A stretch of 64,000 nucleotides of DNA from an uncultured Olsenella sp. (GCA_934660915.1 CAKUIF010000001.1:192319-256318); one strand, 5' to 3'. Positions 18,865-58,461 are shown, numbered from the stretch's first letter. Made by a program: numbers and translations. Notes: a model not told the origin generated them from the letters alone.

Positions 18865-19443
18865 ATGAAGGAGCTCGAGGACCGTATACGCAAGGACGGA
18901 ATCGTTCGAGAGGGCAACGTCCTCAAGGTCGACAGCTTCCTCAACCACAAGTGCGACGTCGCGCTTTACGACCAGATGGGCGCCGAGTGGGCCCGTCTTT
19001 TTGAGGGCAAGAAGGTCGACAAGATCCTGACCATCGAGTCTTCCGGCATCGGCATCGCCTGCGTGGCCGCCACCCACTTCAACAACGTTCCCGTGGTGTT
19101 CGCCCGCAAGACCGAGTCCAAGAACCTCGACGGCGAGCAGTACCGCACCCAGATCAAGAGCTACACCAAGGGCCGCACCTACGAGGTCATCGTCGCCAAG
19201 CGCTTCCTCGAGCGCGGCGAGCACGTCATCATCCTCGACGACTTCCTGGCCATGGGCTGCGCCCTCAACGGCCTGCTCGAGATCTGCGAGGAGGCAGGCG
19301 TCGTGGTCGAGGGCATCGGCATCGCCATCGAGAAGGGCTTCCAGCCCGGCGGCAAGGACCTGCGCGAGCGCGGCTACCAGGTCGAGTCCCTCGCCGTCGT
19401 CAACAGCATGGACGCCGCGACGGGTCAGATCGAGTTCGCGTAG
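18865..19443 (+). CDS. xpt: Xanthine phosphoribosyltransferase
   Basis: [29 protein letters not shown]...[11 protein letters not shown] PRTase motif. GGGAGG RBS. Confidence 0.85.
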
Positions 19444-19467
19444 CGTCTAGGCAAGCATCACCAACAT

Positions 19468-19503
19468 CCGGGCGGGTCGGGGAAATCCTCGGCCCGCTTT
19501 TTG
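19468..19503 (+). terminator. Candidate xpt terminator (imperfect GC stem plus T6)
   Basis: GGGCGGGTCGGGGAAATCCTCGGCCCGC followed by TTTTTT. Confidence 0.45.
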
Positions 19504-19587
19504 GGACAAAAGGGACGGGGTATTCTGTCCCAACTTGTGGAGACGCTCCACATCTTGGGACAGAATACCCCGTCCCTTTTGTCCCAA
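19501..19587. repeat. Perfect 33-bp inverted repeat with palindromic 21-bp spacer (nested or cruciform-capable palindrome)
   Basis: TTGGGACAAAAGGGACGGGGTATTCTGTCCCAA - CTTGTGGAGACGCTCCACATC - exact reverse complement. Each arm itself ends in TTGGGACA/TGTCCCAA. Confidence 0.9.
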
Positions 19588-19594
19588 CTTACGC

Positions 19595-19622
19595 TTGACG
19601 TATGAATAGATGCTCATATAAT
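19595..19622 (+). promoter_or_regulatory. Sigma-70-like promoter for the arsR-HMA-ATPase operon
   Basis: TTGACG - 16 nt - [16 protein letters not shown] before ATG at 19648. Confidence 0.5.
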
Positions 19623-19647
19623 CATTTTTAAGCGAAAGGAGCCCGAT

Positions 19648-19983
19648 ATGTGTGAAGAGCCCAAAGGCCCCATCCCCGTCGGAGAGGCACTCGAGGAGCT
19701 GCCGGACGAGGAGCTGCTCTACGACCTCGCCGACCTCTTCAAGGTCTTCTCGGACACGACCCGCATAAAGATCCTCTTTGCCCTCATGGGACGCGAGCTG
19801 TGCGTCGCCGACATCGCCGAGGCCACCGGCTCCACCCAATCGGCCGTCTCCCACCAGCTGCGCACGCTCAAGCAGGCTCACCTCGTCAAGTTCGAGCGCG
19901 ACGGCCGCAACATCGTCTACTCGCTCGCCGACAACCACGTCTACACCATGCTCAACCAGGGCATGAGCCACATCTGCGAATAA
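19648..19983 (+). CDS. ArsR/SmtB-family metalloregulator (CadC/CzrA-like)
   Basis: 111 aa. ArsR-type HTH region (TRIKILFALMG...SAVSHQLRTLK). N-terminal Cys2 and C-terminal HICE motif. Confidence 0.8.
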   Translation: MCEEPKGPIPVGEALEELPDEELLYDLADLFKVFSDTTRIKILFALMGRELCVADIAEATGSTQSAVSHQLRTLKQAHLVKFERDGRNIVYSLADNHVYTMLNQGMSHICE

Positions 19984-20032
19984 GGTCGGGACGGACGCCC
20001 GTGCCCGCCCCCAGCATTAGAAAGGCATTGCC

Positions 20033-20251
20033 ATGAAGAAGTCCTTCAAGCTCGACGAGATCGACTGCGCCAACTGCGCCCGTGAGCTCGAAGACGAGCT
20101 CGCGAAGCTCGACGGCGTCAAGTCCGTGTCCGTGAACTTCATGACCCAGAAGCTCACCCTCGAGGCCGACGACGCCGAGTTCGACGCCGTGCTCGACCGC
20201 GTCGTCGACTTCACCGCCGACGCCGAGCCCGACTGCGAGATCATCCGCTAA
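20033..20251 (+). CDS. Stand-alone heavy-metal-associated (HMA) domain protein, CadA-N-terminus-like
   Basis: 72 aa with DCANCA metal-binding motif (CANCA as in CadA MBD). Confidence 0.72.
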   Translation: MKKSFKLDEIDCANCARELEDELAKLDGVKSVSVNFMTQKLTLEADDAEFDAVLDRVVDFTADAEPDCEIIR

Positions 20252-20352
20252 TCAGCCCTCCCCTGCCGCCGGCGCCCGCGCGGCAGGGGCTTTTCGCACC
20301 GTAATCTATGAACGGTTGCTCATACATTCAGAATTTTGGAGATGAACGCACC

Positions 20353-22287
<1,935 letters not shown>

Positions 22288-47927: not shown

Positions 47928-48001
47928 TGGAGGCGAAGCCCGGATTCGAACCGGGGGTGAGGGCTTTGCAGGCCCCTGCCTTACCACTTGGCCACTTCGC
48001 C
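47928..48001 (-). tRNA. tRNA-Cys (GCA)
   Basis: GGCGAAGTGGCCAAGTGGTAAGGCAGGGGCCTGCAAAGCCC...CTTCGCCTCCA. Cloverleaf and anticodon-loop CCTGCAAAG read by hand. CCA encoded. Confidence 0.85.
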
Positions 48002-48040
48002 ATATGAAAGAGGCCGGAGTGACCGGCCTCGGTGCTCACA

Positions 48041-48116
48041 TGGAGCGGGCTACGGGGTTCGAACCCGCGACCTCCACCTTGGCAAGGTGGCGCGCTACCA
48101 ACTGCGCTAAGCCCGC
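48041..48116 (-). tRNA. tRNA-Gly (GCC), copy 1
   Basis: GCGGGCTTAGCGCAGTTGGTAGCGCGCCACCTTGCCAAGGTGGAGGTCGCGGGTTCGAACCCCGTAGCCCGCTCCA. Confidence 0.85.
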
Positions 48117-48269
48117 AAGCGCAAGGGATAATATACGGGAAGCTTCAGCCTTGCGCAAGCCCAAATTTCAAATTCGTTGGAAAAAAATTTGGGGAGCTGA
48201 GCTTCACACGGAACGGAGCACGGCCGATCTGCACGAAATTGCAGCTTGGGGCCTATATCTATCCGCATC

Positions 48270-48478
48270 ACAGTGTTCACGCTTGACGTCGAGCCCACAT
48301 CCCACCCTTCCGCAGTGTCCATGCTTGGAGCAGAGCCCATCTCTCCCCGTCCCGCAGTGTTCCAGAGCACTGCGACGGATACCAATGTGGGCTCCGGGCA
48401 ACTTCTCAACACTATACCGCGGGGAGATGTGGGCTCCAGCAGAGCGGGAAACACTGCGGCTTCGGTAAACCTGGGCTC
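48270..48478. repeat. Degenerate ~28-bp repeat array between the two tRNA-Gly genes: 2 forward units (GAGCCCA..TC.C.CC...CCGCAGTGTT) then 3 inverted units (AACACTGCG...GTGGGCTC)
   Basis: Read directly. Same forward-then-inverted architecture as the 29481-29750 array, but a different sequence. Confidence 0.75.
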
Positions 48479-48526
48479 GCGGCGATCGCCCGCCCTTGGC
48501 AAGAAGCGCGCACACGCCCATGCGCA

Positions 48527-48562
48527 ATTAAAAAAGCGGTCGACCCGAAGGTCGACCGCCTG
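48527..48562 (-). terminator. Rho-independent terminator downstream of tRNA-Gly copy 2
   Basis: Minus strand: GGTCGACC-TTCG-GGTCGACCGC then TTTTTTAATTG. Confidence 0.6.
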
Positions 48563-48569
48563 CAATTCA

Positions 48570-48645
48570 TGGAGCGGGCTACGGGGTTCGAACCCGCGAC
48601 CTCCACCTTGGCAAGGTGGCGCGCTACCAACTGCGCTAAGCCCGC
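48570..48645 (-). tRNA. tRNA-Gly (GCC), copy 2 (identical to copy 1)
   Basis: Identical 76-nt sequence to 48041-48116. Confidence 0.85.
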
Positions 48646-58372: not shown

Positions 58373-58461
58373 TGGTGTCGGAGGCGGGACTTGAACCCGC
58401 ATGACCTTTAACAGTCACTAGCACCTCAAGCTAGCGCGTCTGCCAATTCCGCCACTCCGAC
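58373..58461 (-). tRNA. tRNA-Leu (GAG), long variable arm
   Basis: GTCGGAGTGGCGGAATTGGCAGACGCGCTAGCTTGAGGTGCTAG...GGTTCAAGTCCCGCCTCCGACACCA. Folded by hand. Confidence 0.8.

What the first reader, a model, noticed from the sequence alone, without database searches (positions are those of the whole stretch)
19501..19587. Perfect 33-bp inverted repeat with palindromic spacer immediately upstream of the metal-efflux operon promoter
TTGGGACAAAAGGGACGGGGTATTCTGTCCCAA / CTTGTGGAGACGCTCCACATC / TTGGGACAGAATACCCCGTCCCTTTTGTCCCAA. The 33-bp arms are exact reverse complements. Each arm is itself terminated by the inverted octamers TTGGGACA/TGTCCCAA, and the 21-bp spacer contains GTGGAG-ACG-CTCCAC. That is 87 bp of hierarchical dyad symmetry ending 8 bp before a good -35/-10 pair (TTGACG-16-TATAAT) for the arsR-HMA-cadA operon, and right after the xpt terminator. 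Perfect palindromes of this length are rare, because they are unstable in most bacteria. It may be a high-affinity multi-dimer operator (four TGTCCCAA half-sites), an insulator or terminator between xpt and the metal operon, or the footprint of a mobile hairpin element.
Basis: seen in the sequence. Interest (0 to 1): 0.55.

Follow-up and report, generated by a model that had tools for sequence, protein, structure and literature searches.

The report
Mobile hairpin repeat doublet, not an operator
The 87-bp palindrome is real, but it is two back-to-back copies of a short hairpin repeat that is scattered through this gut bacterium's genome and linked to a transposase-like gene, which makes it an ordinary kind of selfish DNA and not a special control site for the metal-resistance genes.

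Summary
Window 19501-19587 is an 87-nt palindrome with exact 33-nt arms and an inner GTGGAG/CTCCAC dyad. It is present in 10 other independently assembled strains, so it is not an assembly artefact. The preferred interpretation (a multi-dimer ArsR operator) is not supported.

The 87 nt is exactly two 42-nt units, TTGGGACAAAAGGGACGGGGGATTTTGTCCCAA-n-TTGTGGAG, joined tail to tail around ACG. This unit is a dispersed repeat:
- It occurs in about 23 stretches of one sister genome (MAG UMGS304).
- Pooled genome and metagenome loci gave 170 elements, which cluster into about 37 genomic sites.
- It occurs as singles, as 87-nt or 98-nt inverted doublets, and in clusters.
- The copies are extragenic and often abut stop codons.

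The same units flank, in inverted orientation, a single-copy 247-aa HUH/Y1 transposase gene. That gene is RAYT/TIRYT-like: Pfam Y1_Tnp, with NCBIfam's REP-associated tyrosine transposase model as its best match. Homologues at 41-49% identity carry their own flanking inverted repeats. Two of the three contain AAAAGGGAC and two contain GGGGACGG, both of which occur in the window unit.

The conserved regulator site is a different dyad between -35 and -10 (19601-19618). This is a new member of a known kind (REPIN / TIRtron repeats). Any local function remains untested.

The parts
19501..19542 (+). Repeat unit 1. A 33-nt hairpin-forming core at 19501-19533 (TTGGGACAAAAGGGACGGGGTATTCTGTCCCAA) is followed by the 9-nt family tail CTTGTGGAG. 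The head points outward towards the xpt terminator.
   Evidence: It has 2 mismatches to the 33-mer family consensus. The consensus was derived from 52 units, with positions 2-32 nearly invariant, a sharp 5' boundary, and the TTGTGGAG tail in about 70% of copies.
19543..19545 (.). The 3-nt centre (ACG) between the two tails, which forms the apical loop of the long hairpin.
   Evidence: This is where most of the polymorphism among strains lies.
19546..19587 (-). Repeat unit 2 in inverted orientation. The tail is 19546-19554 (GATGTGGAG on the minus strand) and the core is 19555-19587. The head points outward towards the arsR promoter.
   Evidence: The same '+-' doublet with a 21-nt spacer (87 nt overall) recurs at 4 distinct genomic sites. 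A 98-nt version with a 32-nt spacer occurs at 6 sites.
19470..19502 (+). Context: the xpt intrinsic-terminator-like hairpin (GGGCGGGTCGGGG-AAAT-CCTCGGCCCGC) plus a T run whose last two T's are the first two bases of the element.
   Evidence: RNA fold. The simple terminator scan did not flag it. It is retained in all strains, with some variation.
19595..19622 (+). Context: the promoter of the arsR-HMA-ATPase operon (-35 TTGACG at 19595-19600, -10 TATAAT at 19617-19622). It encloses the conserved dyad TATGA-N8-TCATA (19601-19618), which is the likely true ArsR/SmtB operator.
   Evidence: 11 of 12 promoter match. In one search, TTGAC, TATGA, TCATA and AATCA are invariant in 8 loci from 6 lineages. 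That this dyad is an operator is an inference from the usual ArsR/SmtB arrangement.
18865..19443 (+). Context: xpt-like phosphoribosyltransferase gene (192 aa) upstream.
   Evidence: Pfam Pribosyltran. Gene calls in orthologous loci.
19648..22287 (+). Context: arsR-family regulator (19648-19983), HMA metallochaperone (20033-20251) and P-type ATPase (20308-22287) downstream.
   Evidence: Pfam HTH_5, HMA, E1-E2_ATPase and Hydrolase.

Best explanation
The palindrome is a non-autonomous mobile element of the REPIN / MITE type. It consists of two copies of a 42-nt repeat unit (a 33-nt hairpin with an 11-bp stem and 11-nt loop, plus a TTGTGGAG tail) joined tail to tail. This is the same head-out orientation in which single units flank the family's Y1 (HUH) tyrosine transposase gene, so the doublet looks like that 'TIRtron' with the gene removed.

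Shown: the unit is a dispersed, extragenic, nearly invariant multi-copy repeat in this lineage and its sister lineage. It occurs as singles, doublets and clusters. It flanks a single-copy transposase gene that sits at a fixed position and has intact catalytic residues. The doublet sits between the xpt terminator and the arsR promoter in all sampled strains and in the sister lineage, while one related lineage has only a single unit at that site.

Inferred, by analogy with E. coli TnpA_REP and IS200/IS605 TnpA: the transposase recognises the hairpin in single-stranded DNA, probably together with the conserved AAAAGGGAC(GG) motif and the tail. It cuts and rejoins next to the hairpin, which copies units or doublets into new extragenic sites.

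At this locus the element is most likely a passenger. The operon's regulation is carried by the conserved dyad inside the promoter. Any effect of the palindrome (blocking read-through from xpt, stabilising the xpt 3' end, displacing upstream promoter DNA) would be incidental and is untested.
For: Dispersed repeat family:
- The 20-mer TTGGGACAAAAGGGACGGGG hits 29 stretches in species-representative genomes. About 23 of them are on many contigs of one MAG (UMGS304) that is 92-94% identical to the window, often at contig ends.
- It hits 113 stretches in metagenome contigs.
- 52 units give the consensus TTGGGACAAAAGGGACGGGGGATTTTGTCCCAA-n-TTGTGGAG, with a sharp 5' edge.
- 170 elements cluster into about 37 sites: 15 sites with singles, 4 with 87-nt doublets, 6 with 98-nt doublets, plus clusters.
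- 32 of 36 elements lie between high-GC3 ORFs, many 0-20 nt from a stop codon.

Associated transposase:
- In L036 a 247-aa ORF flanked by inverted units matches Pfam Y1_Tnp at 45 bits (cutoff 23) and NCBIfam REP-associated tyrosine transposase at 57.7 bits, E 1e-15, against IS200 at 16.6 bits.
- The HUH motif, the catalytic Tyr and a C-terminal HTH-like segment are conserved in 35 homologues.
- The best PDB profile hit is E. coli TnpA_REP, 4ER8.
- The gene is in the same chromosomal context in 24 contigs, and in L050 it is flanked by three units.
- Homologues at 41-49% identity in other genomic contexts carry their own 32-53-nt flanking inverted repeats, at similar distances from the gene. L052 and L053 contain AAAAGGGAC. 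L053 and L054 contain GGGGACGG.

This locus:
- The window's G21T unit variant also occurs beside the transposase gene (L050) and at other sites (L126, L117).
- The xpt-arsR site is polymorphic between lineages: a doublet, a single unit in L167, and a doublet with a flipped centre.

Literature: REP dimers can fold separately or as one large stem-loop. TIRYT/TIRtron repeats form dimers and clusters (PMC3733652, PMC6006769, PMC3116915).
Against: - No transposition event, excision footprint or clean empty site was observed.
- No biochemical data exist for this transposase clade.
- The window itself holds only this one copy in 64 kb, and the transposase gene is not in the window. Multi-copy status in the window's own genome is therefore inferred from a sister MAG and from metagenome contigs.
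- The NCBIfam RAYT score is below the curated cutoff (57.7 against 80).
- The unit lacks the classical 5' GTAG tag.
- Quentin et al. 2018 (PMC6006769) found no REP-like sequences next to subclass 2.1 genes, the subclass this protein resembles.
- Near-identity of copies could partly reflect gene conversion and not recent transposition.
Confidence: 0.85

Rival explanations
1. The element was co-opted locally. The palindrome is kept at this site because it acts as an insulator or read-through barrier between xpt and the metal operon, as a stabiliser of the xpt mRNA 3' end, or as a cruciform that modulates the promoter 7 nt upstream of -35.
For: - It is fixed in all 11 sampled strains (94.5-100% identity) and in the sister lineage.
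- Every polymorphism in the 87 nt is either in the apical loop or keeps the arms paired. Two stem positions changed on both sides and 100% of cells are paired.
- It is a very stable hairpin on either strand.
- REPs in other bacteria are reported to affect mRNA stability and termination (PMC3733652 background).
Against: - The covariation is weak statistically: 36 of 500 shuffles reach it. It can also arise from intra-palindrome repair or conversion from other family copies, because the variants toggle between the family consensus and a lineage variant.
- xpt already has its own terminator, and the palindrome has no U tract on either strand.
- A related lineage has only one unit at this site (L167).
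- Other species have unrelated sequence there while the promoter and operator stay invariant.
Confidence: 0.12
2. The palindrome is a multi-dimer operator in which four TGTCCCAA half-sites are bound by the adjacent ArsR-family repressor.
For: It lies close to the promoter and has four regularly spaced inverted octamers.
Against: - It lies wholly upstream of -35.
- It is not conserved with the regulator, because orthologous loci with 80-92% identical ArsR lack it.
- A different dyad, TATGA-N8-TCATA between -35 and -10, is invariant in all lineages.
- The same octamers occur at about 37 unrelated sites next to unrelated genes.
Confidence: 0.02
3. The palindrome is an assembly or sequencing artefact (a fold-back chimera).
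For: Assemblies do break or mis-join at this repeat. UMGS304 is broken inside it (L021, L028), and L146 and L162 look chimeric.
Against: The identical architecture was assembled independently in at least 10 metagenomes made with different assemblers, with strain-level polymorphisms inside it. It is also present at this site in L084 and L091.
Confidence: 0.01

Closest known systems
REPINs (REP doublets forming hairpins) mobilised by RAYTs (Bertels & Rainey 2011, PMC3116915; PMC5581495)
   Same: - Two short palindromic repeat units in inverted orientation, separated by a short spacer, folding into one long hairpin of about 90-110 nt.
- Dozens of extragenic copies plus single-unit remnants.
- A single-copy Y1/HUH transposase at a fixed chromosomal position, flanked by the same repeats.
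- Arms that stay complementary.
   Different: - The host is a Gram-positive gut actinobacterium (Coriobacteriales/Atopobiaceae), not a gamma-proteobacterium.
- There is no 5' GTAG tag.
- The protein is longer (247 aa, with a C-terminal HTH-like segment) and scores below NCBIfam's RAYT cutoff.
- Copy number is modest, at tens per genome and not hundreds.
- Doublet spacers come in several classes (21, 32, 38 nt and others).
TIRtrons / TIRYT (TIR-associated tyrosine transposases; Di Nocera et al. 2013, PMC3733652), probably equivalent to TnpA_Y1 subclass 2.1 (Quentin et al. 2018, PMC6006769)
   Same: - A RAYT-like Y1 gene flanked by inverted repeats at conserved distances (about 100-170 nt upstream, 0-16 nt after the stop).
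- Repeats with a G-rich GGGGWSAS-like motif (here TGGGACAA, AGGGACGG, and GGGGACGG in homologues).
- Some repeats are self-complementary and form moderately abundant families of singles, dimers and clusters.
- The protein carries a C-terminal HTH-like extension.
   Different: - Membership of subclass 2.1 was not tested phylogenetically.
- The motif matches the published consensus only 6-7 of 8.
- Quentin et al. reported no REP-like sequences near subclass 2.1 genes, whereas here the flanking repeat is a clean hairpin that forms REPIN-like doublets.
- No paper in the searched library links REP elements with this clade.
E. coli REP/BIME elements with TnpA_REP (PDB 4ER8)
   Same: - Extragenic palindromic units close to the 3' ends of genes, arranged in alternating orientation.
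- The transposase profile's best solved relative is 4ER8.
   Different: The similarity to 4ER8 is weak (E 0.002). E. coli doublets are heterodimers (Y/Z) with bulged stems and a GTAG foot. Here the doublets are near-perfect homodimers.
ArsR/SmtB-family operators (imperfect 12-2-12-type dyads overlapping the promoter)
   Same: The sequence has dyad symmetry and lies next to an arsR-family gene.
   Different: The palindrome is outside the promoter, is far longer, is not conserved with the regulator, and is repeated genome-wide. The conserved dyad at 19601-19618 fits this family better.

Membership tests
REP / REPIN-RAYT system | A short (20-40 nt) palindromic unit able to form a stem-loop. | tested here: met
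   The 33-nt consensus folds as an 11-bp stem with an 11-nt loop, -9.4 kcal/mol as DNA, z = -4.8. The window's own arms have one stem mismatch (-5.5 kcal/mol).
REP / REPIN-RAYT system | Many dispersed copies per genome, located in extragenic space. | tested here: met
   About 23 stretches in MAG UMGS304. About 37 distinct sites across related genomes and metagenomes. 32 of 36 elements lie between high-GC3 ORFs. Caveat: the window itself has a single copy in 64 kb, and no closed genome could be scanned.
REP / REPIN-RAYT system | Units paired in inverted orientation with a short spacer, forming one long hairpin (REPIN). | tested here: met
   The window 87-mer folds as one hairpin. '+-' doublets with 21-nt or 32-nt spacers recur at 10 sites.
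REP / REPIN-RAYT system | A cognate single-copy Y1/HUH transposase gene flanked by the same repeats. | tested here: met
   L036 1727-2470 is flanked by units at 1592(+) and 2475(-). L050 has units at 1866(+), 2752(-) and 2794(-). Pfam Y1_Tnp scores 45 bits against a cutoff of 23. The gene has the same neighbours in 24 contigs. The gene is not inside the window.
REP / REPIN-RAYT system | The transposase is an equivalog of classical RAYT (NCBIfam NF047646 curated cutoff). | tested here: not met
   57.7 bits, E 1e-15, against a cutoff of 80. It is still the best NCBIfam model, well ahead of IS200 at 16.6 bits.
REP / REPIN-RAYT system | A conserved GTAG (GT[AG]G) tetranucleotide at the 5' foot of the hairpin. 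| tested here: not met
   The consensus has no GTAG. A conserved tail TTGTGGAG (which contains GTGG) lies 3' of the hairpin, and the conserved GGGACGG motif lies in the loop.
REP / REPIN-RAYT system | Mobility: the transposase binds or cleaves the hairpin, and new insertions arise. | not testable with these tools
   Only indirect signs are available: near-identical copies at unrelated sites, single/doublet polymorphism at the same site, and a lineage-specific G21T variant at several sites.
TIRtron / TIRYT (TnpA_Y1 subclass 2.1) | A Y1 gene flanked by terminal inverted repeats at conserved distances. | tested here: met
   Four clade members in different contexts (L036/L050, L052, L053, L054) have a left repeat about 100-170 nt upstream of the start and a right repeat 0-16 nt after, or overlapping, the stop.
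TIRtron / TIRYT (TnpA_Y1 subclass 2.1) | A long protein with a C-terminal HTH-type domain (Bac_DnaA_C / HTH_23 / HTH_28-like). | tested here: inconclusive
   The C-terminal segment GLSxRQIERLTGIGR is conserved in 35 homologues. Pfam hits to HTH_23, HTH_28 and Xre-like HTH are only sub-threshold, E 0.005-0.05.
TIRtron / TIRYT (TnpA_Y1 subclass 2.1) | Flanking repeats carry the GGGGWSAS motif. | tested here: inconclusive
   Near matches only: TGGGACAA and AGGGACGG in this family, and GGGGACGG, AGGGACAG and GGGGTCGG in homologues' repeats. The published figure could not be inspected.
TIRtron / TIRYT (TnpA_Y1 subclass 2.1) | Phylogenetic placement inside subclass 2.1. | not tested
ArsR/SmtB operator | A dyad overlapping the regulated promoter and conserved together with the regulator. 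| tested here: not met
   The palindrome ends 7 nt upstream of -35 and is absent from orthologous loci in other species. The conserved dyad is TATGA-N8-TCATA inside the promoter.
Intrinsic terminator | A GC-rich hairpin immediately followed by a U tract. | tested here: not met
   The palindrome is followed by CUUACGC on the plus strand and by AAAAAGCGGG on the minus strand. No terminator-like site was called. The separate hairpin at 19470-19497 plus the T run fits xpt termination.

The most novel reading that the evidence does not exclude
This family may be an active, vertically inherited REPIN-like population run by a subclass 2.1 (TIRYT-type) Y1 transposase in a human-gut actinobacterium. 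Genomic surveys reported no REP-like partners for that subclass. In addition, the doublet at xpt-arsR may have been retained by selection, for hairpin integrity or for an insulator or promoter-proximal role, and not merely tolerated. Three observations hint at this: both arms co-vary among strains, the centre is flipped between sister lineages, and the element is fixed across at least 5% sequence divergence.
Probability: 0.15. Interest if true: 0.5.

Novelty: new member of a known kind. Interest (0 to 1): 0.3.

Why it matters
For annotation, the result removes a false lead. The palindrome should not be treated as a metal-operon operator, and the probable operator is the conserved dyad inside the promoter.

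For mobile-element biology, it provides a clean case in a Gram-positive gut lineage of a hairpin repeat family with REPIN-like doublets attached to a TIRYT / subclass 2.1 Y1 transposase. That class has no biochemical characterisation, and its link to dispersed repeats has been reported only sparsely. The near-invariant 33-nt hairpin, the conserved loop motif (GGGACGG) and the tail (TTGTGGAG) give concrete substrates for in vitro work.

In practice, these repeats break and mis-join metagenome assemblies of this clade.

Tried and rejected
- Rfam scan of the whole window at gathering thresholds found only four tRNAs and nothing at the palindrome.
- Searching the window for further copies of the 33-mer (up to 3 mismatches) or of the octamer found none outside the element.
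- Sequence search of the transposase against the PDB found no hit. A profile of 35 homologues gave only a weak best hit to 4ER8.
- tblastn of the transposase against the window found nothing.
- The simple terminator scan called nothing in 19300-19750.
- The covariation test on 11 strains gave 2 compensated pairs, but 36 of 500 shuffles did as well, so I do not claim selection.
- A first k-mer clustering of insertion sites was spoiled by family sequence in the flanks. I redid it with masking and BLAST.
- I looked for a clean empty site in the closest outgroup (L011, ArsR 92% identical). Its intergenic region is unrelated, so insertion boundaries and target duplication could not be defined.
- An integron attC site was considered from memory. 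I dropped it because the units are sequence-conserved and not associated with cassettes.
- A literature search for REP elements in Coriobacteriia, Olsenella or Collinsella found nothing relevant.

Full report
OBSERVATION. Window 19501-19587 is an 87-nt palindrome. The 33-nt segments 19501-19533 and 19555-19587 are exact reverse complements. With the inner GTGGAG/CTCCAC dyad the arms extend to 42 nt at 95% complementarity around a 3-nt centre. Each 33-nt arm is itself a hairpin. The 33-mer and its terminal octamer occur nowhere else in the 64-kb window, and chance expectation for the 33-mer is zero. The region folds far better than shuffled controls, as RNA (z = -13.7) and as DNA (-48.5 kcal/mol, z = -16.4). 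An xpt-like phosphoribosyltransferase gene ends at 19443 and is followed by its own GC-rich hairpin and T run (19470-19502). A TTGACG-16-TATAAT promoter lies at 19595-19622. Then come arsR, an HMA protein and a P-type ATPase. The palindrome ends 7 nt, not 8, before -35.

NOT AN ARTEFACT. The ArsR protein is encoded identically on hundreds of human-gut metagenome contigs. Ten of them (94.5-100% identical to the window over 6.3 kb, with L010 identical) all carry the same 87-nt structure between xpt and arsR. Within those strains the only variable positions are in the apical loop or at two stem positions where both arms changed together (C-G / U-A with U-G intermediates, and U-A / G-C). All stem cells remain paired. 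With six distinct haplotypes this is only suggestive, because 36 of 500 shuffles reach it.

IT IS NOT CONSERVED WITH THE REGULATOR. I fetched orthologous arsR-HMA-ATPase loci from relatives whose ArsR is 80-92% identical. All share an invariant promoter core, TTGAC-r-TATGA-N8-TCATA-y-AATCA. This is a dyad between -35 and -10, which is where ArsR/SmtB repressors normally bind (established knowledge of that family). Nothing upstream of -35 is conserved. The palindrome is absent from these relatives. L011 has unrelated direct repeats there. L014-L017 have arrays of a different alternating inverted repeat, CTCGCnCAAAGTCACG. The operator reading of the palindrome is therefore not supported. The window's probable operator is 19601-19618.

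IT IS A DISPERSED REPEAT. An exact 20-mer from the arm (TTGGGACAAAAGGGACGGGG) hits 29 stretches among species-representative genomes. About 23 of them are on many contigs of one MAG (uncultured 'Olsenella' sp. UMGS304), frequently at contig ends. That MAG is 92-94% identical to the window wherever the two overlap, and its assembly is broken inside this very palindrome (L021/L028). A metagenome scan added 113 stretches. Fifty-two units give the consensus TTGGGACAAAAGGGACGGGGGATTTTGTCCCAA-n-TTGTGGAG. Positions 2-32 are almost invariant, the 5' boundary is sharp, and the tail is present in about 70% of copies. The window's 87 nt is exactly two such 42-nt units, tail to tail, plus ACG.

Pooled over the genome and metagenome loci, 170 elements fall into about 37 distinct genomic sites:
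- 15 sites carry single units.
- 4 sites carry 87-nt doublets.
- 6 sites carry 98-nt doublets with a 32-nt spacer.
- The remaining sites include other spacings, head-to-head pairs and tandem clusters.

Thirty-two of 36 elements lie between high-GC3 ORFs, many within 0-20 nt of a stop codon. The four apparent exceptions are upstream extensions of stop-to-stop ORFs or antisense ORFs.

THE ASSOCIATED GENE. In UMGS304 contig 1, two units in inverted, head-out orientation (L036 1592+ and 2475-) enclose a 247-aa ORF. It matches Pfam Y1_Tnp above threshold (45 bits against 23). Its best NCBIfam model is 'REP-associated tyrosine transposase' (57.7 bits, E 1e-15, below the equivalog cutoff of 80), with IS200 at only 16.6 bits. 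The HUH motif (NHVHL), the catalytic Tyr (RYxxxNP) and a C-terminal GLSxRQIERLTGIGR segment are conserved across 35 homologues. The C-terminus gives only sub-threshold HTH_23/HTH_28-type hits. A profile of the family finds E. coli TnpA_REP (4ER8) as its best solved relative, weakly (E 0.002). A 92%-identical orthologue (P0122) sits in the same chromosomal context in 24 contigs, with PFK divergent upstream, and is flanked by three units. Many close homologues sit on contigs of about 900 bp, which is what repeats on both sides of a gene would produce in an assembly. Homologues at 41-49% identity, in different genomic contexts and including a Butyrivibrio-labelled one, are flanked by their own 32-53-nt inverted repeats at similar distances from the gene. 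L052 and L053 contain AAAAGGGAC. L053 and L054 contain GGGGACGG. In the window's family the corresponding sequence, AAAAGGGACGG, covers the 3' end of the 5' stem strand and the start of the hairpin loop.

COMPARISON WITH WHAT IS KNOWN. This is the anatomy of REP/REPIN-RAYT systems (PMC3116915, PMC5581495). More specifically it matches the 'TIRtron/TIRYT' variant described by Di Nocera et al. (PMC3733652). Those are RAYT-like genes flanked by inverted repeats sharing a GGGGWSAS motif. Some of the repeats are self-complementary and form moderately abundant families of singles, dimers and clusters. Quentin et al. (PMC6006769) equate TIRYTs with TnpA_Y1 subclass 2.1 (long proteins with a C-terminal HTH) and report finding no REP-like sequences next to them. 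In the present family the flanking repeat is a clean hairpin that forms REPIN-like doublets. No paper in the searched library links REP elements with Coriobacteriia, Olsenella or Collinsella. Classical defining features not met are the 5' GTAG tag and the NCBIfam RAYT cutoff. I therefore file it as a new member of the known REPIN/TIRtron kind, not as a classical RAYT-REP system.

DYNAMICS AT THIS SITE. The doublet is present in all sampled strains and in the sister lineage (L084). In L084, however, the centre reads TATGTGGAGCCGCTCCACAAG against the window's CTTGTGGAGACGCTCCACATC. The CTTGTGGAG tail has swapped sides, as expected from inversion by recombination between the arms or from re-insertion. 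Another lineage (L167) has only one unit at this site, next to the xpt terminator. The window's unit variant (G21T) is also found beside the transposase gene (L050:2794) and at other sites (L126, L117), which indicates a lineage-specific subfamily. These are indirect signs of turnover. No transposition event was observed.

MECHANISM. Shown: a repeat family, a doublet architecture, and association with an intact Y1/HUH gene. Inferred by analogy with TnpA_REP and IS200/IS605 TnpA: the enzyme recognises the hairpin in single-stranded DNA and cuts and rejoins beside it, which copies units or doublets to new extragenic sites. Local function is probably none. An insulator, RNA-stability or promoter effect is possible but untested (about 0.12).

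VERDICT. The operator interpretation is rejected and the mobile-hairpin interpretation is upheld. The finding is ordinary in kind, with modest interest as a well-defined new family in a gut actinobacterium.

Noticed in passing
window 19595-19624: A conserved dyad, TATGA-N8-TCATA, sits between the -35 and -10 hexamers. TTGAC, TATGA, TCATA and AATCA are invariant in 8 loci from 6 lineages down to about 75% identity. It is the likely true ArsR/SmtB operator of the metal operon.
   Followed up: partly
L014:1920-2200, L015:1850-2160, L016, L017 (the xpt-arsR intergenic region of a related species): The same intergenic region, 620-690 nt long there, holds arrays of a different alternating inverted repeat (CTCGCnCAAAGTCACG / CGTGACTTTGnGCGAG, with 16-bp stems). 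This is followed in L014 by GC-rich direct repeats (GCGCCCGTCACGCTCGCGG...). It may be another REP/BIME-like family occupying the same landing site. Its genome-wide copy number was not checked.
   Followed up: partly
L011:1990-2110 and 2200-2320: In the closest outgroup the xpt-arsR spacer (562 nt) contains three direct copies of ...CACACTTTnCGATTAGGGCCACG... and two inverted partial copies (GCCCTAAGCGAGT...GCGCAGCG). This is yet another repeat set at the same locus.
   Followed up: no
L084:10310-10396 compared with window 19501-19587: The centre of the palindrome is flipped between sister lineages (the CTTGTGGAG tail is on opposite sides). This is consistent with inversion by recombination between the perfect arms.
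   Followed up: partly
L146:5565-5730 and L162:9868-10030: In these contigs the repeat joins the arsR promoter, or the reverse complement of the arsR coding region, to the flank of a different repeat site. These are either chimeric assemblies at the repeat or real repeat-mediated rearrangements.
   Followed up: no
L108:509-620: A head-to-tail tandem array of three 40-nt copies (ACGGGCACG + unit) shows that the family also forms direct clusters.
   Followed up: no
family consensus; window 19501-19533: The 33-nt unit has no stop codon in any of the six reading frames. Spurious or extended ORFs therefore read straight through it (as seen in the ORF lists), and an intragenic insertion could be tolerated.
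   Followed up: no
L037, L045, L049: Units identical to the consensus (0 mismatches) also occur once each in records labelled Tractidigestivibacter scatoligenes SK9K4 and 'Olsenella uli DSM 7084 isolate CC00563'. The latter shares its flanks with a Collinsella-labelled MAG (L049). This suggests either horizontal spread or mislabelled or contaminated assemblies.
   Followed up: no
one search hit list (P0123, P0125-P0127 and many others): Many homologues of the Y1 transposase are known only from contigs of about 900 bp. This is the pattern expected when a gene is bracketed by repeats that break assemblies, so this gene class is probably under-represented in binned genomes.
   Followed up: no
window 47931-48645 and 58376-58461 (minus strand): Four tRNA genes are the only Rfam matches in the window at gathering thresholds.
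   Followed up: no
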